Source of the DNA: Verrucomicrobiota bacterium
GTDB taxonomy: Bacteria; Verrucomicrobiota; Verrucomicrobiia; Opitutales; Opitutaceae
Reading direction: 5' to 3'
DNA length: 64,000 nt
NCBI GenBank assembly: GCA_019510185.1
Contig: JAEKKV010000023.1
Coordinates: forward strand, 9,366 to 73,365
A program made the translations under genes and the position numbers. The notes under the pieces are model-generated. The model was not told where the DNA came from, made no database searches, and worked only from the letters and a program-made list of their open reading frames with translations. This document shows positions 47,764 through 56,410 of the stretch, piece by piece; positions within the stretch are counted from its first letter, which is position 1; every line of letters starts with the position of its first letter.

Positions 47764-48774
47764 TCAGGCGGATCGTGCGTCCGGCGGGCGCAGGGCAAGC
47801 GGGCAGGGCCGGCCGGCGGCGAAATCATCGACGCTTTTCAACGTGGTTTCCGCGATGTTGCCGAGGGCTTCGTGGGTGAGAAACCCTTGGTGGCCGGTGA
47901 CGAGCACGTTGGGCAGAGCGATCAATCGGGCGAGGGTTTCGTCGGCGAGGGGACCGGCGGAATGGTCTTCGTAGAAGAACCCGGCCTCGTTTTCATAAAC
48001 ATCGAGCCCCAGTCGCCCGAGCTGGCCGCTTTCGATGGCGGCAATGGTGGCGGGGGTGTCGATCAGGCCGCCACGGCTGGTGTTGAGAAGCGTGGCCCCG
48101 GGCTTCATGCGTTCCAGAGTGGTTGCGTTGATGAGGTGGCGGGTGGCGGGGACGAGCGGGCAATGGAGCGAAACGACGTCGGACCGGGCCAACAGTTCGT
48201 CGAGTTCGCAAAAAACGAAACCCGCCTCCCTGGCTTCGTCCGAAGGAAACGGATCGCAGGCGAGCACCCGGCAGCCAAAGCCTTGCATGATCCGGCCGGT
48301 GATCGTTCCGATGCGGCCGGTGCCGACGAGGCCGAAGGTTTTCCCTTCAAGGTCGAAGCCCATCAGCCCATCGAGCGAAAAATCGCCGCGGCGCACCCGT
48401 GCATGGGCCTGGTGGATGCGGCGGTTGAGCGTGAGCAGCAGGGCGACGGTGTGCTCGGCCACGGCATGCGGTGAGTAGCCCGGGACATAGACGACGGTGA
48501 GGCCGAGTGCGGCGGCGGCGACCAGATCCACATGGTTGTAACCAGCCGAGCGCAGCGCGATCAACCGCGTGCCGCCGGCGGCGAGGCGGGCGAGCACGCC
48601 GGCGTCTAGCCGGTCGTTGACGAACGCGCACACCGTTTCGCTACCGTGGGCGAGCCTGGCCGTTTCCGGCGTGAGGCGTTCCTCGTGGAAAGACAGCCGG
48701 TGACCGCGCGCCGCGTTGGCCGCGGTGAAATACCGGCGGTCGTAGGGCTTGGCGCTGAAGACGGCGATGGTCAT
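47764..48774 (-). CDS. ldhA: D-lactate dehydrogenase (2-hydroxyacid dehydrogenase)
   Basis: LRSAGYNHVD, YSPHAVAEH, GTGRIG, NTSRGGL, GLDVYENE and TGHQGFLT. Confidence 0.9.
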   Translation of the reverse strand: MTIAVFSAKPYDRRYFTAANAARGHRLSFHEERLTPETARLAHGSETVCAFVNDRLDAGVLARLAAGGTRLIALRSAGYNHVDLVAAAALGLTVVYVPGYSPHAVAEHTVALLLTLNRRIHQAHARVRRGDFSLDGLMGFDLEGKTFGLVGTGRIGTITGRIMQGFGCRVLACDPFPSDEAREAGFVFCELDELLARSDVVSLHCPLVPATRHLINATTLERMKPGATLLNTSRGGLIDTPATIAAIESGQLGRLGLDVYENEAGFFYEDHSAGPLADETLARLIALPNVLVTGHQGFLTHEALGNIAETTLKSVDDFAAGRPCPLALRPPDARSA

Positions 48775-48878
48775 GACCGGGACGGCGGACGACGGTGGCT
48801 GCGAGTGGATTGCATGCTGGCTGGGCGAAGACTGTTCCGCATTGCGGTCCGGCGTCGAGGCTCTACATTGGCCCTCCC

Positions 48879-49787
48879 ATGTCGTTGTCCGACTCTCCGG
48901 CCAAGCGTAGTCGAGCCCTCGTCGAGCAATTGAAACGCTCGGAGATCTACCGTGATTACGAGCAGGCGTTTCGCGACACGACCGGCCTGCCCCTTCACCT
49001 GCGCGAGTTGGAGGCCTTCGACCTGCCTCATCACAAAGATCCCAACGAGAATCCCTTTTGCGCGCTCATGGCCAAGAGCAACCAGTCGTGCTCCGCGTGC
49101 CTGCAACTCCAGAAAAAAGTCGAGGAGGAGGCGCGGCTCGAACCCAAGACGCTCAAGTGTTTTGCGGGCCTGTGCGACTCGGCCGTCCCCATCCGCGTCG
49201 GCGAAAATCTCATCGCTTTCCTGCAGACCGGTCAGGTGCTGTTGCACCAGCCGACCAAGGCGCAGTTTGCCAAGGCCACCCGGGAGCTGCTCAAATTCGG
49301 CACCGACGTGGACCTCAAGAAGCTGGAGGAGGCGTTCTTCCAGTCGCGCGTTGTCACGAAAAGACAATACGACTCGATCCTGCGCCTGCTCGCGATTTTC
49401 GCGCAGCACCTGGCCAGCCTGAGCAACCAGCTTTCGGTGAGAGAGGAAAACGCCGAGGCTCCCGCCATCGCCCGGGCGCGCATCTACATCACCGAAAGGC
49501 ACGCCGATGACCTCTCGCTCGACGAGGTCGCCAAGGCGGTGAACATGAGCGCGTTTTATTTTTGCAAGATGTTCAAGAAGGCCACGAGCATGACCTTCAC
49601 CGACTATCTTGCCCGCGTGCGCGTGGAAAAGGTCAGGAATCTCCTGCTCAATCCCCACAAGCGCATCAGCGAGGCGGCGTTTGAAGCGGGCTTCCAATCG
49701 CTATCCCAGTTCAATCGCGTATTCCGCAAGATCGCGGGCGAGGCGCCCACCGTCTATCGCACTCGGCTTCACGGCAGCGCGGCGTGA
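48879..49787 (+). CDS. AraC-family regulator with N-terminal PocR sensory domain
   Basis: NPFCALM...CSAC...KCFAGLCDSAVPI PocR pattern; C-terminal double HTH (LDEVAKAVNMSAFYF, AGFQSLSQFNRVF). Confidence 0.9.
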   Translation: MSLSDSPAKRSRALVEQLKRSEIYRDYEQAFRDTTGLPLHLRELEAFDLPHHKDPNENPFCALMAKSNQSCSACLQLQKKVEEEARLEPKTLKCFAGLCDSAVPIRVGENLIAFLQTGQVLLHQPTKAQFAKATRELLKFGTDVDLKKLEEAFFQSRVVTKRQYDSILRLLAIFAQHLASLSNQLSVREENAEAPAIARARIYITERHADDLSLDEVAKAVNMSAFYFCKMFKKATSMTFTDYLARVRVEKVRNLLLNPHKRISEAAFEAGFQSLSQFNRVFRKIAGEAPTVYRTRLHGSAA

Positions 49788-50275
49788 GTTTTTCCACCGC
49801 CGGCCGGTTTTGAGGCCGGGTGTTTTTCCCCGGCCGGTGTGTGCGCGCCAGTGCGGGCGGCCGGCGACTCGTGCCGATCCCGGCGTTCGTTGTGCAGGCA
49901 GAGCGCGCAAAAATTCGCGATCTCGCGCCGCGCGACGGTTTCCAGCGCCTGCTCCATTTCCTCCGCGTCGCGGATCTTGAGGGGCGCGTCTCCAGCACAG
50001 ACTGCCAATGCCTCGTGCAGCGAGAGCCGTGCGGTCGCGAAATAGGCGATCAGCGGATTCAATCCGCACGGGCAGGGCGGCCGCGGCGTCTGGCGGCGCG
50101 AGTGGGGCGCCGCCAGCTCGCGGAACAGCTGGTCCAGCGTCCACTCCATCAGGTACACGAGTGCGTCGGGGTTGGCCAGCGGGGAGGTCACGGGCGCGGC
50201 GCGCAGACGGGCCTCCCACTGGCGGTGCAGGGTGGGGCGGTAAGTTTGCAGGGCGCTGAGGCTGCGCTCGTCCAT
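49769..50275 (-). CDS. Hypothetical Cys-rich helical protein (168 aa)
   Basis: Start MDERSL; motifs CPCGLNP and FCALC; convergent with the AraC gene. Confidence 0.75.
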   Translation of the reverse strand: MDERSLSALQTYRPTLHRQWEARLRAAPVTSPLANPDALVYLMEWTLDQLFRELAAPHSRRQTPRPPCPCGLNPLIAYFATARLSLHEALAVCAGDAPLKIRDAEEMEQALETVARREIANFCALCLHNERRDRHESPAARTGAHTPAGEKHPASKPAGGGKTHAALP

Positions 50276-50281
50276 GCTTCC

Positions 50282-50426
50282 ATCCTGCCATTTTGCAGCG
50301 CGAGCCGCTTCGCATGGTTTGGCCAAGCATCCGCATCTTTTGCGGGCGGATTATGGGCCTCCTCGCAAAATATGCGCAGCCCTCGCCAAGGTGCGCGCAG
50401 AGGGTTTTCCGCGCGGCCGCTAGCAT
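50282..50426. promoter_or_regulatory. Bidirectional promoter with mirror-image tandem AraC-type sites
   Basis: Plus strand: CGCAAAATATGCG (50364) and GCCAAGGTGCGCG (50385). Minus strand: CGCAAAAGATGCG (50344) and GCCAAACCATGCG (50323). Each pair is 21 bp apart and followed 23 nt later by TAGCAT or CAGGAT. Confidence 0.65.
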
Positions 50427-50449
50427 GGGGACGCTTTCTGATGACCATT

Positions 50450-50674
50450 ATGAAAACTCCTCAACACCGCGAGCCCACCGAAGACGAAATCCGTCACGAG
50501 GCCTATCTTCTCTGGCTGGCCGACGGGCGTGTCCCGGGGCGCGAGCTCGAGCACTGGCATGCCGCCCGTGAAACGCTGCGCCATCGCGTCCATGTCTCCG
50601 CTCTTCGCGCGCTGCCGGACGGAGGCAACGTGCTGCATTTTCCCCCTGCTCGGAATGCCCGGCGCCAGTCCTGA
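50450..50674 (+). CDS. DUF2934 domain protein
   Basis: EDEIRHEAYLLWLADGRVPGRELEHWHAA matches DUF2934; alternative ATG at 50441. Confidence 0.85.
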   Translation: MKTPQHREPTEDEIRHEAYLLWLADGRVPGRELEHWHAARETLRHRVHVSALRALPDGGNVLHFPPARNARRQS

Positions 50675-50726
50675 GGCAGGCCGTTCCGAGCTTCGGGCGT
50701 TCGTTCCTCTTCAACCACTCCTTCCC

Positions 50727-51041
50727 ATGTCCGTCATTCCACTCACGCTGACCATCAGTCTCTGCCTGGTTTTCACCTTCGTCGTTTTTTTTCTGCGCGA
50801 ACAAAGCCGCCGTCATCTGAGCAGCGCCGAGAGCGAGGCGTTGCTGCCGCTCGCCGACGAGACGCCGCATGTTCTGGCCGCGCCGGCACCGGTTGAACCT
50901 GCGGCGCCGCCTGCGCACGCCCATGGGCATGCGCCCGGGCATGTCTGCCATGGCAACGGTTCCTGTAATTCCTGCCTTCGTCGCGCGGCGCGCCAGCAGA
51001 CGGCCGTCGTCTCTGCCCCCGCTCCTTCGCCTTCCGTTTAA
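50727..51041 (+). CDS. CcoS/FixS-like cbb3 maturation protein with His/Cys-rich tail
   Basis: MSVIPLTLTISLCLVFTFVVFF...LLPLADE N-terminus, directly upstream of ccoN. Confidence 0.65.
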   Translation: MSVIPLTLTISLCLVFTFVVFFLREQSRRHLSSAESEALLPLADETPHVLAAPAPVEPAAPPAHAHGHAPGHVCHGNGSCNSCLRRAARQQTAVVSAPAPSPSV

Positions 51042-51050
51042 TTTTCTCCC

Positions 51051-53357
51051 ATGTCCGACCGCAAAATCACGCTCGAATACAACGACAAGGTCGTCCGCCA
51101 GTTCATGCTCGCCTCCGTTCTCTGGGGTGTCGTGGGCATGCTGGTGGGCATGCTCGTCGCCTCCCAGCTCAATTATTGGCGTCTCAACTTCAACCTGCCC
51201 TGGCTGACCTTCGGGCGGCTGCGTCCGCTGCACACGAACGCGGTGATCTTCGCGTTCGTCGGCAACATGATGTTCGCCGGCGTCTATTACTCGACGCAGC
51301 GCCTGGTGAAGGCGCGCCTCGCGAGCGATTTTCTCTCGGCGCTCCATTTCTGGGGCTGGCAGCTCATCATTGTAGCGGCGGCGATCACGCTTCCGCTGGG
51401 TTTCTCGCGGGGCAAGGAATATGCCGAGCTCATCTGGCCGATCGACATCGCGGTCGCGCTCATCTGGGTCGTTTTCGCGGTCAACTTTTTCTGGACGCTC
51501 GCGCGCCGGCATGAGCGCAGCCTGTACGTGGCGATCTGGTTCTACATCGCGACGATCATCACCGTGGCGATGCTCTACATCGTCAACCACCTCTCGATCC
51601 CCACCTCGCTGCTCCACAGTTATCCGGTCTTCGGTGGTGTGCAGGACGCGCTGGTGCAATGGTGGTACGGGCACAACGCCGTGGCGTTCTTTCTCACCAC
51701 GCCGATCCTCGGCATCATGTATTACTTCCTGCCGAAGGCGGCGGAGCGGCCGGTTTACAGCTACCGCCTCTCGGTAATCCATTTCTGGTCGCTGGTCTTC
51801 GTCTACATCTGGGCCGGTCCGCACCACCTTCTCAACACGGCGCTGCCCGGCTGGCTGCAGGCGCTCGGAGTGACGTTTTCGGTCATGCTCTGGGCGCCGT
51901 CCTGGGGCGGCATGCTCAACGGCCTGCTCACCCTGCGCGGCGCGTGGCACCGGCTGCGCACCGATCCCGTGCTCAAGTTTTTCGCCGCTGCCGTGACCTT
52001 TTACGGCATGGCCACGTTCGAGGGCCCGCTGCTTTCGATCAAGCCGGTCAACGCCCTCGCGCATTACACCGACTGGATCATCGGCCATGTCCACGCCGGC
52101 GCGCTCGGCTGGAACGGCTTCATGGCCGCCGGCATGTTTTACTGGCTGACTCCGCGTCTCTGGAACCGGCCGCTGTTCTCCCAGGGCCTCGCCAACCTGC
52201 ACTTCTGGCTCGGGACGGTCGGCATCCTGCTCTACGTCGCCGCGATGTGGACCTCGGGCATCACTCAGGGCCTCATGCTCAACGCCACGACGGAGCACGG
52301 CACGGTGCTGGCGTATCCGAACTTCATCGACACGTTGAACGCTATCCGTCCGATGATGCTCTTTCGCGTGGTCGGCGGCGGGCTATACCTCGTGGGCTGG
52401 ATGCTGCTGGTCTATAATCTGTATCGCACCCTGCGCGGCGCCCGTCCGGTCAATGGCACGGTCGAGGTTTTCCTCTCCGAAAAAACCGGCGCCGACGAGC
52501 GCCTGGGCGTGGGCGGCATGCTGCTCAATCCGCCCGTGGTGTTTTCCGTGCTCGGTACCCTTTCCGCCTGCGCCTGGCTGTTTGGCGGCGATTTCCTGAA
52601 GCTCGCCGGGCTCTTCGGCACCGCCTTTTTTGTGATCCTCGCCTGGGTGCACTTCGAGGCCCGCAAACACCAGTGGGGAGCGTGGTACGACCGGCTGCTC
52701 GTCAGCGTCATGCCGTTCACGGTGCTCACCTTCGTTGCCGTGGCCGCCGGCGGCCTCATCCAGATCATCCCGACGACCTTGGTGAATCGCGCGGAGAACA
52801 TCGAGGACCGCCGGCAGATTCCCTACACGCCGCTGGAGCTCGCCGGTCGCGATCTCTATGTGAGCGAGGGCTGCTACAACTGTCATTCGCAGATGATCCG
52901 CACGCTGGTGCCCGATGTGCTCCGCTATGGCGACTATTCGCGCCTCGGCGAATCCATCTACGATTATCCCCACCAGTGGGGTTCCAAGCGCACCGGTCCG
53001 GATCTCGCCCGTGTGGGCGGCAAGTATCCGGCCGTCTGGCATTATCGTCACATGGAGGATCCGCGCTCCGTCTCGGCCGGTTCCAACATGCCCAATTACC
53101 CGTGGCTGCTTGCGCAAAAAACAGATGTAGCCGCCCTGTCCGCCAAGCTCTCCGTGCAACGCATGCTCGGCGTGCCTTATCCCCGGTGGACGGACGCCGA
53201 GATCGTCGAAAACGTCGGGCGGCAGGAACAGGCCATCGTCGCCGACCTCCGCGCCTCGGGCGCCTCCGTGCCGCCGGATCGCGAGATCGTCGCCCTGATC
53301 GCCTACTTGCAGACGCTCGGCCGCTCCGAGACACCGCCCAAGGCGGCCGCACGTTAA
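51051..53357 (+). CDS. ccoNO: cbb3-type cytochrome c oxidase fused subunits I/II (CcoN-CcoO)
   Basis: RLRPLHTN, WWYGHNAV, WAGPHH and GHVH ligands; C-terminal EGCYNCHSQMIR and WGSKRTGPDL. Confidence 0.97.
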   Translation: MSDRKITLEYNDKVVRQFMLASVLWGVVGMLVGMLVASQLNYWRLNFNLPWLTFGRLRPLHTNAVIFAFVGNMMFAGVYYSTQRLVKARLASDFLSALHFWGWQLIIVAAAITLPLGFSRGKEYAELIWPIDIAVALIWVVFAVNFFWTLARRHERSLYVAIWFYIATIITVAMLYIVNHLSIPTSLLHSYPVFGGVQDALVQWWYGHNAVAFFLTTPILGIMYYFLPKAAERPVYSYRLSVIHFWSLVFVYIWAGPHHLLNTALPGWLQALGVTFSVMLWAPSWGGMLNGLLTLRGAWHRLRTDPVLKFFAAAVTFYGMATFEGPLLSIKPVNALAHYTDWIIGHVHAGALGWNGFMAAGMFYWLTPRLWNRPLFSQGLANLHFWLGTVGILLYVAAMWTSGITQGLMLNATTEHGTVLAYPNFIDTLNAIRPMMLFRVVGGGLYLVGWMLLVYNLYRTLRGARPVNGTVEVFLSEKTGADERLGVGGMLLNPPVVFSVLGTLSACAWLFGGDFLKLAGLFGTAFFVILAWVHFEARKHQWGAWYDRLLVSVMPFTVLTFVAVAAGGLIQIIPTTLVNRAENIEDRRQIPYTPLELAGRDLYVSEGCYNCHSQMIRTLVPDVLRYGDYSRLGESIYDYPHQWGSKRTGPDLARVGGKYPAVWHYRHMEDPRSVSAGSNMPNYPWLLAQKTDVAALSAKLSVQRMLGVPYPRWTDAEIVENVGRQEQAIVADLRASGASVPPDREIVALIAYLQTLGRSETPPKAAAR

Positions 53358-53376
53358 ACCTCCTTCAACTTTCCCG

Positions 53377-53562
53377 ATGTTCCGCCGCCTTCTTTTCGAC
53401 GACTGGGTGATGATCTTTCCCCTCGTGGCCTTCATCACCGCCTCCTCCATCTACGCGACCCTTACCTGGCGCGCGCTCCGCATGCGTCGCTCGCAAGTCG
53501 AGCACTTCGCCCGTCTGCCTTTCGAAAACGAAACCACCGTCTCCTTGCATGAAGCCGAATAA
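53377..53562 (+). CDS. ccoQ: cbb3 oxidase subunit CcoQ-like
   Basis: 61 aa, single TM helix, ARLPF motif, between ccoO and ccoP. Confidence 0.75.
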   Translation: MFRRLLFDDWVMIFPLVAFITASSIYATLTWRALRMRRSQVEHFARLPFENETTVSLHEAE

Positions 53563-54094
53563 CTCCACGCCGCCCCCCGAAGATCCGGTGCGCCATCACG
53601 TTTACGATGGCATTCAGGAATATGACAAGCGCCTGCCCAACTGGTGGCTGCTCACGTTTTACGGGGCGATCGTCTTCTCCATCATCTACTGGCTCGTCAC
53701 GCAGCACTTCCCGAGTTCCACCGACGAATCCCGCCTCCATGCGGAAATGGCCGCGATCGAGACGGCGAAGCTGGCTTCGTCGTCCGCCACCCTGGATGAC
53801 GCGACGCTCTGGAAAATGAGCCGCAATCCCGCCTTCGTTGACGCCGGCAAGATCACTTATAATGCCACCTGCGCCAGTTGCCACAATGCGGCGCTCACCG
53901 GTGGCATTGGTCCTAATCTGCTCGACGAAGTCTGGATTCATGGCGGCCGCCCCACCGAGGTGCTGGCGACCGTCACCGACGGCGTGCTCGTCAAAGGTAT
54001 GCCAGGCTGGGGGCCTGTCCTCGGCTCGCAAAAAGTATCCGAGGTGGTCGCGTTTATCATGAGCCGTCACGACGCGCCGGGTGGCGCGAAATAA
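53549..54094 (+). CDS. ccoP: cbb3 oxidase subunit III (monoheme)
   Basis: HVYDGIQEYDKRLPNWW, one CASCH, GGIGPNL and GMPGW. Confidence 0.92.
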   Translation: MKPNNSTPPPEDPVRHHVYDGIQEYDKRLPNWWLLTFYGAIVFSIIYWLVTQHFPSSTDESRLHAEMAAIETAKLASSSATLDDATLWKMSRNPAFVDAGKITYNATCASCHNAALTGGIGPNLLDEVWIHGGRPTEVLATVTDGVLVKGMPGWGPVLGSQKVSEVVAFIMSRHDAPGGAK

Positions 54095-54106
54095 CGGGCA
54101 GTCCTG

Positions 54107-55579
54107 ATGAATGAAACGTCCAGTCCAGCGGAGGCGCGCGCCAAGTCGTCCGGACGCCCTACGTTCCGGCGCCCCGAGCGGGATTCCGTCACCACTATCC
54201 AGGCAGATGGTTCGCGGTTTTTTTTGCATCCGTCCGATGTGCGCGGCGTGTTTACGCGCGCCCGCCGGTGGTCGGGCTGGCTGTTGATCGCGCTTTATCT
54301 CGTGCTGCCTTGGATCCCGGTGGGTGGCTATCCGGCGGTGTTGCTCGATGTCGCCGCGCGCCGGTTTCACTTCTTCGGGCTGACCCTGGCGATTCAGGAT
54401 ACCTGGCTGCTTTTCTTTGGAATCACCGGGTTGGGATTTTCGCTTTTCCTCATCACCGCGCTGCTCGGCCGCGTGTGGTGCGGCTGGGCGTGTCCGCAAA
54501 CGGTTTTTCTCGATCATGTTTTCCGTCGGGTCGAACGCTGGCTGGAGGGCGATGCGATCGCGCGCCGCCAGCTCGACGCCTCGCGCTGGACGTCGGTCAA
54601 AATCGTGCGCCGGGGGGCGAAGCAATTCGCGTTTATCCTGCTTTCGGGGGTGATCGCGCACCTGTTCCTGGCCTATTTCGTCTCGATCCCCCGGCTCTGG
54701 GGAATGATGGGCGCCTCGCCGGGCGACCATTGGGCCTCGTTCGTGTTCATCTTCATTTTCACCGCGGTGCTGTATTTCAACTTCGCGTGGTTTCGCGAGC
54801 AGTTGTGCATCGTTCTCTGCCCTTACGGCCGGCTGCAATCGGCGCTGATCGACGATCATTCACTGGTCATCGGCTATGACGCGCGGCGCGGCGAGCCGCG
54901 GGGCAAGCTGCATGCGCCCGCGGCGGGAGCCTGCATCGACTGCAACCGTTGCGTGCAGGTCTGCCCGACCGGCATCGACATCCGCCAGGGGCTCCAGATC
55001 GAGTGCATCGGTTGCGCGGCATGTATCGACGCGTGTGACGACGTGATGACACGCGTGGGCCGTCCGCGCGGTTTGATCCGCTACGATTCGCTGACGGCCT
55101 TCGCCGGAGGGGTGACCCGCTGGCTGCGTCCGCGCACCCTAGTTTACGCAGCCTTGCTGCTGGCGGGCGCGGCGGTGGCGGCGTGGGCGTTATCCACGGT
55201 GCGCCCGGCGAATATCGGTGTCACGCGCATGACGGGAGCGCCCTACTTTGTGGACGCGCGCACGGTGCGAAACCAATTCCTCGTGCGCCTCGTGAACAAG
55301 CGGGATGTGCCCGCGCGTTTCATCATCGCCCTTTCCGGCGCGCCGGTTCCGGTGGAGCGCGAGGGATTGGACGGTGCGGTGGAGATCGGTCCGATGGCCG
55401 AGGAAGTGCGTCCGCTCATCCTGCAGGTGACGCGCACGGATTACGTGGGAAGTTTCGTGCTGACCGTGAACGTGACTGACGAGGCGGGCACCTTTACGTT
55501 GGCGCGCGAAGTGGAGTTTATCGGTCCGGATCCAGTCTTGCTGGGCATCCAAGGAGGCGGCCATGAAGGTGAAAAATGA
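54107..55579 (+). CDS. ccoG: cbb3 accessory 4Fe-4S protein
   Basis: CGWACPQ, CPYGRLQ, CIDCNRCVQVCPTGIDIR and CIGCAACIDAC. Confidence 0.95.
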   Translation: MNETSSPAEARAKSSGRPTFRRPERDSVTTIQADGSRFFLHPSDVRGVFTRARRWSGWLLIALYLVLPWIPVGGYPAVLLDVAARRFHFFGLTLAIQDTWLLFFGITGLGFSLFLITALLGRVWCGWACPQTVFLDHVFRRVERWLEGDAIARRQLDASRWTSVKIVRRGAKQFAFILLSGVIAHLFLAYFVSIPRLWGMMGASPGDHWASFVFIFIFTAVLYFNFAWFREQLCIVLCPYGRLQSALIDDHSLVIGYDARRGEPRGKLHAPAAGACIDCNRCVQVCPTGIDIRQGLQIECIGCAACIDACDDVMTRVGRPRGLIRYDSLTAFAGGVTRWLRPRTLVYAALLLAGAAVAAWALSTVRPANIGVTRMTGAPYFVDARTVRNQFLVRLVNKRDVPARFIIALSGAPVPVEREGLDGAVEIGPMAEEVRPLILQVTRTDYVGSFVLTVNVTDEAGTFTLAREVEFIGPDPVLLGIQGGGHEGEK

Positions 55580-55712
55580 CCGCATCCCCTGGTTATGGGC
55601 ATGGGTCGGCGGGGTGTTCACCCTGCTGATGATCGCTTGGGCGGTGTTGCTGACCGTGGTGGTGAAGCATCCGGTGGCCGAGGTGCCCCTGGCAACAAAG
55701 CCCCTTCGCTGA
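55563..55712 (+). CDS. Small single-TM protein (49 aa) at the FixH/CcoH position, not in the ORF track
   Basis: Hand translation MKVKNDRIPWLWAWVGGVFTLLMIAWAVLLTVVVKHPVAEVPLATKPLR; overlaps the ccoG stop and ends 2 nt before the next ATG. Confidence 0.65.
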   Translation: MKVKNDRIPWLWAWVGGVFTLLMIAWAVLLTVVVKHPVAEVPLATKPLR

Positions 55713-55714
55713 CG

Positions 55715-56410
55715 ATGGAACTCGCGAGCATCAGCACTCCGGCGGCGGCCTTTGTCGCGGGACTCGTGACGAGCCTGCATTGCGCGGGCATGTGCGGTCC
55801 GCTCGCCTGCCTGCTGACGCCGGCGCGGGACGAGAAGGCTGATCCGCAGACGGTCGCGACGGTCTATCATCTCGCGCGCCTCGGCGGGTATGCGACGCTC
55901 GGTGCGATCGCGGGAGCGGCGGGCCGGTTGCCGGACGCCTTGCTGGGCGGCGCGCCCGCGAAAGCACTTCCGTGGATCGTGGTGCTTTTTTTGGTGGCGG
56001 TGGCCTTTCGCTGGGAGAAGCGCCTGCCGCGCTTCGCCTTCTTCACGCGCCTGCAATGGCGGCTGCAACAGGCGCTGCGCGGCCGTTCCCGGCTGCGCGT
56101 GGCGGCGGTGATGGGCGCGGCCACGCCCCTGCTGCCGTGCGGGCCGCTTTATTTTCTGATCGCACTCGCGGCCTTGTCGGGGTCGGCGTTGCGCGGAGTT
56201 GAATTCATGCTGGCCTTCGGCCTGGGCACGGTGCCGTTGCTCTGGCTGGTGCAGGCCAACTCCGGATTTTTGCGCGCGCGGCTTTCGCCGGTGTGGCTGG
56301 CGCGTTTTCAAACCGGTCTCGCGCTCGCCGCCGCCGTGGTTCTCACCTGGCGCCTGCGTGGCACCCTGGGTTTCGGCGGACCGGCACTGGACGCCTTCAT
56401 CTGCCATTGA
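55715..56410 (+). CDS. DsbD_2/TauE-SafE-like membrane protein of cco clusters
   Basis: SLHCAGMCGP and LLPCGPLY motifs; start chosen at MELASI. Confidence 0.9.
   Translation: MELASISTPAAAFVAGLVTSLHCAGMCGPLACLLTPARDEKADPQTVATVYHLARLGGYATLGAIAGAAGRLPDALLGGAPAKALPWIVVLFLVAVAFRWEKRLPRFAFFTRLQWRLQQALRGRSRLRVAAVMGAATPLLPCGPLYFLIALAALSGSALRGVEFMLAFGLGTVPLLWLVQANSGFLRARLSPVWLARFQTGLALAAAVVLTWRLRGTLGFGGPALDAFICH

What the first reader, a model, noticed from the sequence alone, without database searches (positions are those of the whole stretch)
50282..50426. Mirror-symmetric operator/promoter array driving the cbb3 operon and the divergent Cys-rich gene
Seen: four 13-mers fitting SSCAA-N3-RY-GCG, arranged as two direct-repeat pairs pointing away from a centre near 50354. 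Plus: 50364 CGCAAAATATGCG and 50385 GCCAAGGTGCGCG. Minus: 50344 CGCAAAAGATGCG and 50323 GCCAAACCATGCG. Both pairs are spaced exactly 21 bp. Both are followed after exactly 23 nt by a -10-like hexamer (TAGCAT 50421-50426; CAGGAT 50287-50282). The leftward one places the TSS at about the ATG (50275), i.e. leaderless. Established: AraC-family activators bind 21-bp-spaced direct half-sites abutting the -35. Inference: this is the binding motif of the adjacent PocR-AraC, and it allows regulon prediction.
Basis: partly seen in the sequence, partly recalled or inferred. Interest (0 to 1): 0.7.

Follow-up and report, generated by a model that had tools for sequence, protein, structure and literature searches.

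The report
Conserved AraC-type operators flanking cbb3 oxidase genes
Four short DNA boxes between a cbb3 oxidase operon and a divergent cysteine-protein gene are a real, widely conserved pair of regulator-dependent promoters in Opitutaceae bacteria, most likely bound by the neighbouring PocR-AraC regulator, which seems to take the place that FNR holds in better-known bacteria.

Summary
Four boxes sit at 50308-50323(-), 50329-50344(-), 50364-50379(+) and 50385-50400(+). They form two direct pairs offset by 21 bp, each followed after 23 nt by a -10-like hexamer. The degenerate 13-mer alone is not enriched in the window, so the significance comes from conservation. The same layout recurs in 20 species of the genus and in other Opitutaceae genera, including Geminisphaera colitermitum TAV2.

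The central spacer varies from 15 to about 47 nt and the arms do not co-vary. So these are two independent promoter units, not one palindrome.

Where the divergent Cys-protein gene is absent, only the cco-side pair remains. In other families the PocR-AraC gene lies divergent from cco, with a single pair of the same core (ATATGCGnAG, 21 bp apart) overlapping a -35-like element. Genomes with ccoNO but no PocR-AraC lack the boxes.

In the window's genome the tandem motif occurs only here, so the predicted regulon is local. The genome has no recognisable FNR.

Regulator binding, the start sites, the sign of regulation and the signal remain inferred.

The parts
48879..49787 (+). PocR-AraC regulator gene (a longer ORF starts at GTG 48795; the conserved start is ATG 48879)
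   Evidence: Pfam PocR 2.2e-25, HTH_18 3.6e-23 and HTH_AraC 6.3e-16. Orthologues are linked to ccoNO in seven families. Five sensor-domain cysteines are invariant.
49769..50275 (-). Cys168 gene: a 168-aa helical protein with invariant C68, C70, C123 and C126; target of the left promoter, predicted to be leaderless
   Evidence: No Pfam hit. Conserved in Opitutaceae. AF2 model pLDDT 84.6, all-alpha, with weak globin-like matches at E > 0.4.
50282..50287 (-). Left -10-like hexamer CAGGAT (genus consensus CATACT)
   Evidence: CAnnnT in 20 of 20 species, always 23 nt from the outer box (22 nt in L021, which has a 1-nt indel) and 6-8 nt before the ATG.
50308..50323 (-). Left outer (promoter-proximal) box GCCAAACCATGCGAAG, predicted -48 to -33
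   Evidence: 19.7-20.4 bits.
50329..50344 (-). Left inner (distal) box CGCAAAAGATGCGGAT, predicted -69 to -54
   Evidence: 19.3 bits.
50345..50363 (.). Central spacer; 15-22 nt within the genus and about 47 nt in TAV2, not conserved in sequence
50364..50379 (+). Right inner (distal) box CGCAAAATATGCGCAG, predicted -69 to -54
   Evidence: 22 bits.
50385..50400 (+). Right outer (proximal) box GCCAAGGTGCGCGCAG, predicted -48 to -33
   Evidence: 14-15 bits. It is the most divergent from the common consensus but is itself nearly invariant between species.
50421..50426 (+). Right -10-like hexamer TAGCAT (genus consensus TAAGCT); predicted start site near 50433
   Evidence: TAnnnT exactly 23 nt after the outer box in 19 of 19 species aligned without indels, and also in L032, L034 and TAV2.
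50441..50674 (+). DUF2934 gene (start at 50441 or 50450), first gene of the rightward unit in this genome
   Evidence: Pfam DUF2934 8.4e-11. Present at the same position in other genera (L027, L028, L031, L034).
50727..51041 (+). CcoS-like 104-aa membrane protein with a His/Cys-rich tail
   Evidence: Conserved directly upstream of ccoNO in all relatives; no Pfam hit.
51051..56410 (+). ccoNO fusion, small ORF, ccoP, ccoG and a DsbD_2 protein (cbb3 oxidase and maturation genes)
   Evidence: Pfam COX1 + FixO, FixP_N + Cytochrome_CBB3, Fer4_18 + FixG_C, DsbD_2.

Best explanation
The 50282-50426 region holds two independent, back-to-back promoters that depend on a regulator. Each unit has two 16-nt boxes (consensus SSCAA-N3-RYGCG-SAG) in direct repeat, 21 bp apart and pointing towards the gene it serves. 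The proximal box ends about 20 nt upstream of a -10-like hexamer, so it covers the position where a -35 element would lie, and no TTGACA-like -35 is present.

The left unit starts transcription at or within 1-2 nt of the ATG of the Cys168 gene, giving a leaderless mRNA. The right unit starts near 50433 and transcribes DUF2934, then the CcoS-like gene, then ccoNO-ccoP-ccoG.

The boxes are most likely bound by a dimer of the adjacent PocR-AraC protein, one monomer per box with its two helix-turn-helix motifs reading the CAA and ATGCG halves. It would act as a class II activator in the manner of AraC at araI1-I2 or XylS at Pm. The regulator is local: these two units are its whole detectable regulon in this genome. 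The signal is probably low oxygen or redox state, sensed through the five invariant cysteines of the PocR domain.

Shown here: the anatomy, its conservation, its uniqueness in the genome, and its co-occurrence with the regulator gene. Inferred: physical binding, the start sites, activation rather than repression, and the signal.
For: - Anatomy and coordinates.
- Conservation of the boxes, the 21-bp offsets, the constant-length but variable-sequence 23-nt gaps and the -10-like hexamers in 20 species.
- The same architecture in other genera, including TAV2.
- The units are independent: the central spacer is 15-22 nt in the genus and about 47 nt in TAV2, and the arms do not co-vary.
- Each pair goes with its transcription unit: only the right pair is present where the Cys168 gene is absent (L032, L034). 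In 80 further loci the left pair is found in 38 of 67 with the gene and 0 of 13 without, p = 1e-4.
- Link to the regulator: PocR-AraC is adjacent to ccoNO in 23 of the 28 genomes that have both, across seven families and three arrangements (tallied by hand).
- In distant families one direct pair ...ATATGCGnAG, 21 bp apart, overlaps a -35-like AAGACA, then 17-18 nt, then a -10; the first gene is again leaderless in 5 of 6 loci.
- Four genomes with ccoNO but no PocR-AraC have no boxes (best pair sum below 0 bits).
- The tandem is unique in the 3.3-Mb genome, also with a PWM that leaves out this genome and its closest relatives.
- The regulator has the AraC double HTH with conserved recognition helices.
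- There is no FNR box in the region and no CRP/FNR-type HTH above the family cut-off in the genome.
- No sigma-70 consensus promoter was found in the region, as expected for activator-dependent promoters.
Against:
- The promoter consensus of Verrucomicrobiota is not established, so the -10 assignment rests on conserved position and on A2/T6 only.
- In this genome the left hexamer CAGGAT overlaps an AGGA that could serve as a Shine-Dalgarno 7 nt before the ATG. That alternative is not conserved in most relatives.
- A weak terminator-like hairpin (50687-50703) follows DUF2934, so read-through into ccoNO is unproven in this genome.
- PocR-AraC paralogues with nearly identical recognition helices exist at loci without cco genes and without detectable boxes.
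- In family f17 the orthologue is not adjacent to ccoNO.
- A PWM trained on one genus found no tandem in 22 of 67 more distant loci, some of them truncated.
Confidence: 0.75

Rival explanations
1. The boxes are real operators, but the PocR-AraC protein represses rather than activates. By occupying the -35 region of both promoters it blocks RNA polymerase until a signal releases it.
For: The proximal boxes cover the -35 position. In distant families a fairly good -35-like AAGACA and a good -10 (TAATAT, GATAAT) lie under or next to the proximal box, so those promoters might work unaided.
Against: AraC/XylS-family proteins with this tandem geometry are typically activators (my own knowledge of AraC, XylS and RhaS; PocR and MtaR are activators, PMC13602510). 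In the window's family the -35 position reads GAGAGG or AWGCGG, unlike TTGACA, and no consensus promoter is detected.
Confidence: 0.15
2. The boxes are bound by a different, unlinked transcription factor, such as a global redox or oxygen regulator, and the neighbouring PocR-AraC gene is a bystander.
For: No direct binding data exist. Paralogues with similar recognition helices have no nearby boxes. 41 of 69 ccoNO-bearing genomes in the order lack the regulator, so cbb3 genes can be controlled in other ways.
Against: A global regulator should have many sites, but the tandem is unique in the genome. The motif core follows the PocR-AraC gene through three gene arrangements and is absent from cco loci without it. 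No other regulator gene is conserved at the locus. There is no FNR box and no FNR-type protein.
Confidence: 0.07
3. The region is a structural inverted repeat (a cruciform, an RNA hairpin or attenuator, or a REP-like repeat), or a single large palindromic operator for one symmetric oligomer.
For: The arms 50319-50344 and 50364-50389 are 77% complementary over 26 nt.
Against: The arms do not co-vary: agreement at variable columns equals the expectation under independence, and each box has its own fixed differences. The spacer between the arms varies from 15 to about 47 nt. One arm exists without the other in L032 and L034. There are no Rfam matches. The motif is not repeated elsewhere in the genome.
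Confidence: 0.02

Closest known systems
AraC at araI1-araI2 (E. coli pBAD) and XylS at the Pm promoter (Pseudomonas putida TOL plasmid)
   Same: A regulator with the AraC double HTH. Two roughly 16-17-bp half-sites in direct repeat with a 21-bp period. The proximal half-site overlaps the -35 position of a promoter with a poor -35. The distal site is near -70 to -54 and the proximal one near -48 to -33. The comparison with AraC and XylS rests on my own knowledge; the geometry here comes.
   Different: The sensor is a PocR domain with five invariant cysteines, not the AraC arabinose-binding/dimerisation domain. The targets are respiratory genes. Two such units are placed back to back, one of them leaderless. 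No distal looping site (an araO2 equivalent) was found.
PocR (Salmonella pdu/cob activator) and MtaR (Eubacterium limosum methanol regulator)
   Same: The same domain architecture, PocR sensor plus AraC DNA-binding domain. Both are local activators of an adjacent operon (PMC13602510).
   Different: Those proteins respond to propanediol or methanol metabolism, and their operators are not biochemically defined; the MtaR paper only predicts an inverted repeat. Here the operator is defined by phylogenetic footprinting as a direct repeat, and the target is the cbb3 oxidase.
FNR/Anr/FixK-dependent ccoNOQP promoters of Proteobacteria
   Same: The same target operon, the high-affinity cbb3 oxidase and its maturation genes. 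A class II-type site overlaps the -35. A cysteine-rich sensor could plausibly report oxygen.
   Different: There is no TTGAT-N4-ATCAA box in the region and no CRP/FNR-type HTH above the cut-off in the genome. The regulator belongs to a different family, has a different operator symmetry (direct rather than inverted), and has a local rather than global regulon.

Membership tests
AraC/XylS-type class II activator site (tandem direct half-sites) | A regulator with two AraC-type helix-turn-helix motifs is encoded at the locus | tested here: met
   Pfam HTH_18 3.6e-23 and HTH_AraC 6.3e-16 in window 48795-49784.
AraC/XylS-type class II activator site (tandem direct half-sites) | Two half-sites of about 16-17 bp in direct repeat, two helical turns (21 bp) apart | tested here: met
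   A 21-bp offset on both sides in 19 of 20 genus species (the remaining one, L021, has 1-nt indels), and also in other genera and families.
AraC/XylS-type class II activator site (tandem direct half-sites) | The promoter-proximal half-site abuts or overlaps the -35 region | tested here: met
   The 16-nt proximal box ends 20 nt upstream of the conserved -10-like hexamer on both sides. In distant families it overlaps a -35-like AAGACA. This rests on predicted start sites, not mapped ones.
AraC/XylS-type class II activator site (tandem direct half-sites) | The regulator physically binds the boxes and activates transcription | not testable with these tools
   Needs EMSA or footprinting and reporter or knock-out assays. 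Only co-occurrence evidence is available.
FNR/CRP-dependent cbb3 promoter | A TTGAT-N4-ATCAA box upstream of the cco genes | tested here: not met
   No match with up to 2 mismatches between 50276 and 50449.
FNR/CRP-dependent cbb3 promoter | An FNR/CRP-family regulator in the genome | tested here: not met
   PF13545 gives only one sub-threshold hit (23.9 bits against a cut-off of 27) in a 99.5%-complete genome; all 14 control genomes score above the cut-off.
Leaderless mRNA promoter (left unit) | The -10 element ends about 6-8 nt before the start codon, leaving no room for a leader | tested here: met
   6-8 nt in 20 of 20 genus species and 6 nt in TAV2. The same holds for the first gene in 5 of 6 distant-family loci.
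Leaderless mRNA promoter (left unit) | A mapped 5' end at the A of the ATG | not testable with these tools
Salmonella PocR-type regulon (propanediol/cobalamin) | The regulator controls pdu/cob or similar small-alcohol metabolism genes | tested here: not met
   The neighbours and the only motif-bearing promoters are the cbb3 oxidase genes and the Cys168 gene.
Structured RNA, cruciform or dispersed repeat | Compensatory variation between the arms, a match to a known RNA family, or further copies in the genome | tested here: not met
   No covariation, no Rfam match and no other copies.

The most novel reading that the evidence does not exclude
Across the order Opitutales, a PocR-AraC protein whose PocR domain carries five invariant cysteines is the primary oxygen or redox sensor for the high-affinity cbb3 oxidase. 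It would replace FNR, which this genome lacks, and act through AraC-style tandem direct repeats. The co-regulated, leaderless, globin-like four-cysteine protein (Cys168, and the 165-aa first gene of the operon in other families) would be its feedback partner or co-sensor.
Probability: 0.35. Interest if true: 0.75.

Novelty: new member of a known kind. Interest (0 to 1): 0.55.

Why it matters
Control of the cbb3 oxidase is a textbook FNR/FixK/Anr function in Proteobacteria. Nothing comparable has been described for Verrucomicrobiota, and no paper in the searched library links PocR, AraC and cbb3.

This work gives a precise operator (four boxes, the consensus and the geometry), a named candidate regulator and a small, closed regulon. 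It also names a cultured strain, Geminisphaera colitermitum TAV2, that carries the complete layout. The hypothesis can therefore be tested directly with EMSA, 5' end mapping and oxygen-shift experiments.

It would also be one of the few operators defined for any PocR-domain AraC regulator, and it suggests that PocR domains can be cysteine-based redox sensors rather than only binders of small alcohols.

Tried and rejected
not enriched, 6 matches against 9.1 expected, so it was dropped as evidence.
- **Rfam scan of 49500-51200:** no match.
- **Sigma-70 consensus scan:** no promoter found; consistent with activator dependence, but uninformative for this phylum.
- **Hairpin, cruciform or single palindrome:** rejected because the arms do not co-vary and the spacer length varies.
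- **Sigma-54 reading of TGGCCAAGCATCCGCA in the left arm:** considered by eye and rejected, because the GG at the -24 position is not conserved in relatives.
- **FNR box:** none in the region.
- **Wider regulon:** whole-genome PWM scans found no further tandem above the control level, and the strict tandem pattern across 201 genomes of the order gave only control-level singletons outside the genus.
- **Targets of paralogues:** seven PocR-AraC paralogue loci without cco genes had no convincing tandems. The one hit, in L033 upstream of a B12-dependent ribonucleotide reductase, lacks the -10 geometry.
- **Homology of Cys168 to the 165-aa first gene of distant-family operons:** only marginal (BLASTP E = 4e-4 in one pair and nothing in another; hhalign E = 0.003, probability 11%), so it stays a hypothesis.
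- **Fold of Cys168:** the model is confident, but the globin-like matches are not significant.
- **The TAV2 oxygen-response paper (PMC3749508):** not held.

Full report
**1. The observation**

- Plus strand: CGCAAAATATGCG at 50364 and GCCAAGGTGCGCG at 50385.
- Minus strand: CGCAAAAGATGCG from 50344 and GCCAAACCATGCG from 50323.
- Both pairs are offset by 21 bp.
- TAGCAT (50421-50426) and CAGGAT (50287-50282) each lie 23 nt beyond the outer box.
- The left hexamer ends 6 nt before the ATG at 50275.

The degenerate pattern as written is not enriched in the window: 6 matches against 9.1 expected, with 82 of 100 shuffles reaching 6. Four of the six matches cluster here, but the pattern was fitted to those four, so this alone is weak evidence. 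The repeat finder sees the arms as a 26-nt inverted repeat, 77% complementary. No Rfam family matches, and no sigma-70 consensus promoter is found.

**2. Gene context**

Pfam gives the following map:

| Window coordinates | Strand | Gene |
|---|---|---|
| 47764-48774 | - | 2-hydroxyacid dehydrogenase |
| 48879-49787 | + | PocR-AraC regulator |
| 49769-50275 | - | 168-aa protein with no family ("Cys168") |
| 50276-50440 | | the array |
| 50441/50450-50674 | + | DUF2934 gene |
| 50727-51041 | + | 104-aa CcoS-like membrane protein |
| 51051-53357 | + | ccoNO fusion |
| 53377 onward | + | small ORF, ccoP, ccoG and a DsbD_2 protein |

The rightward promoter therefore does not sit directly in front of ccoN. 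The organism is an Opitutaceae bacterium (Verrucomicrobiota); the nearest named records are Rariglobus MAGs.

**3. Phylogenetic footprint within the genus**

The Cys168 protein is found in 22 of 24 genomes of the genus. In about 20 species the order is the same: PocR-AraC, then the convergent Cys168 gene, then the intergenic region, then the CcoS-like gene and ccoNO.

Aligning the 20 intergenic regions on the boxes shows:
- All four boxes are present in every species, with invariant CAA and (A/G)(T/C)GCG cores.
- Both offsets are 21 bp in 19 of 20 species; the exception, L021, has 1-nt indels.
- The central spacer varies in sequence and in length, 15-22 nt.
- The 23-nt stretch between the outer box and the hexamer varies in sequence but is constant in length on both sides.
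- The right hexamer is TAnnnT (mostly TAAGCT) and the left one is CAnnnT (mostly CATACT), with A2 and T6 invariant.
- The left hexamer ends 6-8 nt before the conserved ATG.

The boxes extend to 16 nt (SSCAA-N3-RYGCG-SAG). Each of the four has its own fixed peculiarities. For example, column 8 of the left inner box is G in 19 of 19 species, whereas the right inner box has T or A there.

**4. Not a hairpin and not one palindrome**

At variable columns the two arms agree exactly as often as independence predicts. The spacer between them varies, reaching about 47 nt in Geminisphaera colitermitum TAV2, which otherwise has the full layout: TACCAT and CACATT each 23 nt from the outer box, and the left hexamer 6 nt from the ATG. 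The mirror symmetry is therefore the by-product of two separate units placed back to back.

An extra plus-strand match between the two left boxes arises because TGCGCA and TTGSCAA are themselves near-palindromes.

**5. Each pair belongs to its own transcription unit**

In other Opitutaceae genera that keep the Cys168 gene (L027-L031), all four boxes are present. In two genera that lack the gene (L032, L034), PocR-AraC lies directly upstream of the cco genes on the same strand. There only the right pair remains, still 21 bp apart and still followed after exactly 23 nt by TAACTT or TATGAT.

In 80 further Opitutaceae loci, the left pair was detected in 38 of 67 that carry the Cys168 gene and in 0 of 13 that lack it (Fisher p = 1e-4). 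DUF2934 occurs at the same position in several other genera, so it looks like an ancestral member of the operon that most species of this genus have lost.

**6. Link to the PocR-AraC regulator**

Orthologues of the regulator (46-86% identity) occur in 34 of 201 sampled genomes of the order, and ccoNO occurs in 69. My hand tally from those two calls:

| | ccoNO present | ccoNO absent |
|---|---|---|
| PocR-AraC orthologue present | 28 | 6 |
| PocR-AraC orthologue absent | 41 | 126 |

In 23 of the 28 genomes with both, the two genes lie within about 6 kb. This holds in seven families and in three arrangements.

In the families where the regulator is divergent from cco, the shared intergenic region carries one direct pair of boxes with the same core (for example GCGAAGATATGCGTAG, then GTCAGGATATGCGAAG 21 bp later). 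The proximal box overlaps a -35-like AAGACA or GAGACA, followed by 17-18 nt and then a -10 (GAGAAT, TAATAT, GATAAT, GACAAT). In five of six loci the first gene starts 6-8 nt after the -10, so it too would be leaderless. In five loci that first gene is a 160-170-aa protein; in one locus (L043) it is a hemN-like gene.

As a negative control, four genomes with true ccoNO orthologues but no PocR-AraC orthologue have no tandem upstream. Their best pair sums are below 0 bits, against 30-40 bits at loci with the regulator.

Both recognition helices of the regulator are conserved. Helix 1 differs between the window's family (SAFYFCKMFKK) and the distant families (STRHFCKVFKQ). That parallels the change in the CAA half of the box while the ATGCG-AG half stays the same. 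This parallel is suggestive only.

**7. Regulon**

A PWM from all boxes finds the tandem only at this locus in the 3.3-Mb genome: 39.7 and 37.6 bits, against 14.9 for the next hit and 19.5 for the control maximum. Single boxes are not enriched, 56 against 44 in the control.

A PWM that leaves out this genome and its three closest relatives gives the same answer: 39.0 and 36.6 bits, against 20.2 for the next hit and 20.3 for the control. So the motif does allow a regulon prediction, and the prediction is a local regulon of two divergent units. No box lies in front of the regulator gene itself in this family.

**8. Absence of the usual regulator**

There is no FNR-type box in the region. The 99.5%-complete genome has no CRP/FNR-type HTH above the Pfam cut-off, while all 14 control genomes do.

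**9. Mechanism proposed**

With the -10 hexamers taken as -12 to -7, the proximal boxes cover -48 to -33 and the distal boxes -69 to -54 on both sides. This is the geometry of AraC at araI1-I2 and of XylS at Pm (my own knowledge of those systems).

I therefore propose that a PocR-AraC dimer occupies each pair and activates a promoter that lacks a usable -35. The five sensor-domain cysteines, invariant in all cco-linked orthologues, make a redox, oxygen or metal signal plausible, but nothing here tests that.

From my own recollection, the cbb3 oxidase of strain TAV2 was reported as induced at low oxygen. The TAV5 genome note mentions only that the oxidase is present (PMC4358385).

**10. The co-regulated Cys168 protein**

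Four cysteines are invariant (C68, C70, C123, C126). The AlphaFold model is confident (pLDDT 84.6) and all-helical. Its best structural matches are globin-fold proteins, but none is significant (E > 0.4, TM about 0.43).

It aligns co-linearly with the 165-aa first gene of the distant-family operons, with the N-terminal motif, the CxC and the REI..C all lining up, but the statistics are weak (hhalign E = 0.003, probability 11%). One of those distant proteins gives a faint RsbRD_N signal (E = 0.26).

The left unit of the window has the same ATGCG-to-ATG distance (about 40 nt) as the single unit of the distant families (41-44 nt). A reasonable but unproven scenario follows: the leaderless promoter of the Cys-protein gene is the ancestral unit, and in Opitutaceae the gene became divergent while the cco genes acquired a second copy of the box pair.

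**11. Caveats**

- Binding, start sites, the sign of regulation and the signal are all inferred.
- In this genome CAGGAT overlaps an AGGA that could be a ribosome-binding site. This is not conserved in most relatives.
- A weak terminator-like hairpin follows DUF2934.
- Paralogues with similar recognition helices lack nearby boxes.

**12. Verdict**

The architecture is a known kind, AraC-type class II tandem sites. The regulator-target pairing, a PocR-AraC protein controlling the cbb3 oxidase in a lineage without FNR, was not found in the literature searched.

Noticed in passing
window 50441-50674: A DUF2934 gene lies between the right promoter and the CcoS-like gene. It is absent at this position from the other ~19 genus loci examined but present at the same position in several other Opitutaceae genera (L027, L028, L031, L034), so it looks like an ancestral operon member that has often been lost.
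   Followed up: partly
window 50727-51041: The CcoS-like protein (104 aa, no Pfam hit) has a CcoS-like N-terminal transmembrane helix and a His/Cys-rich tail (HAHGHAPGHVCHGNGSCNSC). The tail could bind copper or another metal during oxidase maturation.
   Followed up: no
L038, L042, L044, L045, L046 (distant families), between PocR-AraC and the ccoS-like gene: A conserved 160-170-aa protein (MNERLVSYLxDNRDQIIENWLTE..., with TCxC and a C-terminal CxxxxxxxxC) is the first, mostly leaderless gene of the cco operon. It may be a remote homologue of Cys168 (hhalign E = 0.003) and gives a faint RsbRD_N hit.
   Followed up: partly
L043 (G069), between PocR-AraC and the ccoS-like gene: A 484-aa hemN-like ORF (judged by eye from its YNVPGPRYTSYPTA motif; oxygen-independent coproporphyrinogen oxidase-like, not scanned against Pfam) takes the first position behind a box-like element. 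That fits a low-oxygen regulon.
   Followed up: no
window 49769-49787: The 3' ends of the convergent PocR-AraC and Cys168 genes overlap by 19 nt, so transcription of one could interfere with the other.
   Followed up: no
whole window: The FNR-like pattern TTGATNNNNATCAA with up to 2 mismatches occurs 26 times against 11.4 expected (0 of 100 shuffles reach 26), although the genome has no FNR/CRP-type HTH above the cut-off. None of the matches lies in the cco upstream region. Unexplained; it may reflect codon or palindrome bias.
   Followed up: no
L033 9145-9181 (G079, contig 17): A PocR-AraC paralogue (68% identical) that is not next to cco genes has one tandem box match about 2.2 kb away, roughly 170 nt upstream of a B12-dependent ribonucleotide reductase gene. 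There is no -10-like hexamer at the expected distance.
   Followed up: partly
window 50320-50335 (genus consensus GCCAAAGCGTGCGCAT): A fifth, plus-strand box-like match lies between the two left boxes in most species and is weaker in this genome. It probably arises because TGCGCA and TTGSCAA are near-palindromes, but it could be an extra contact site.
   Followed up: partly
family f17 genomes (G074, G099, G141, G159, G194): These have both a PocR-AraC orthologue and ccoNO, but on different contigs. They are the only family sampled in which the two are not adjacent.
   Followed up: no
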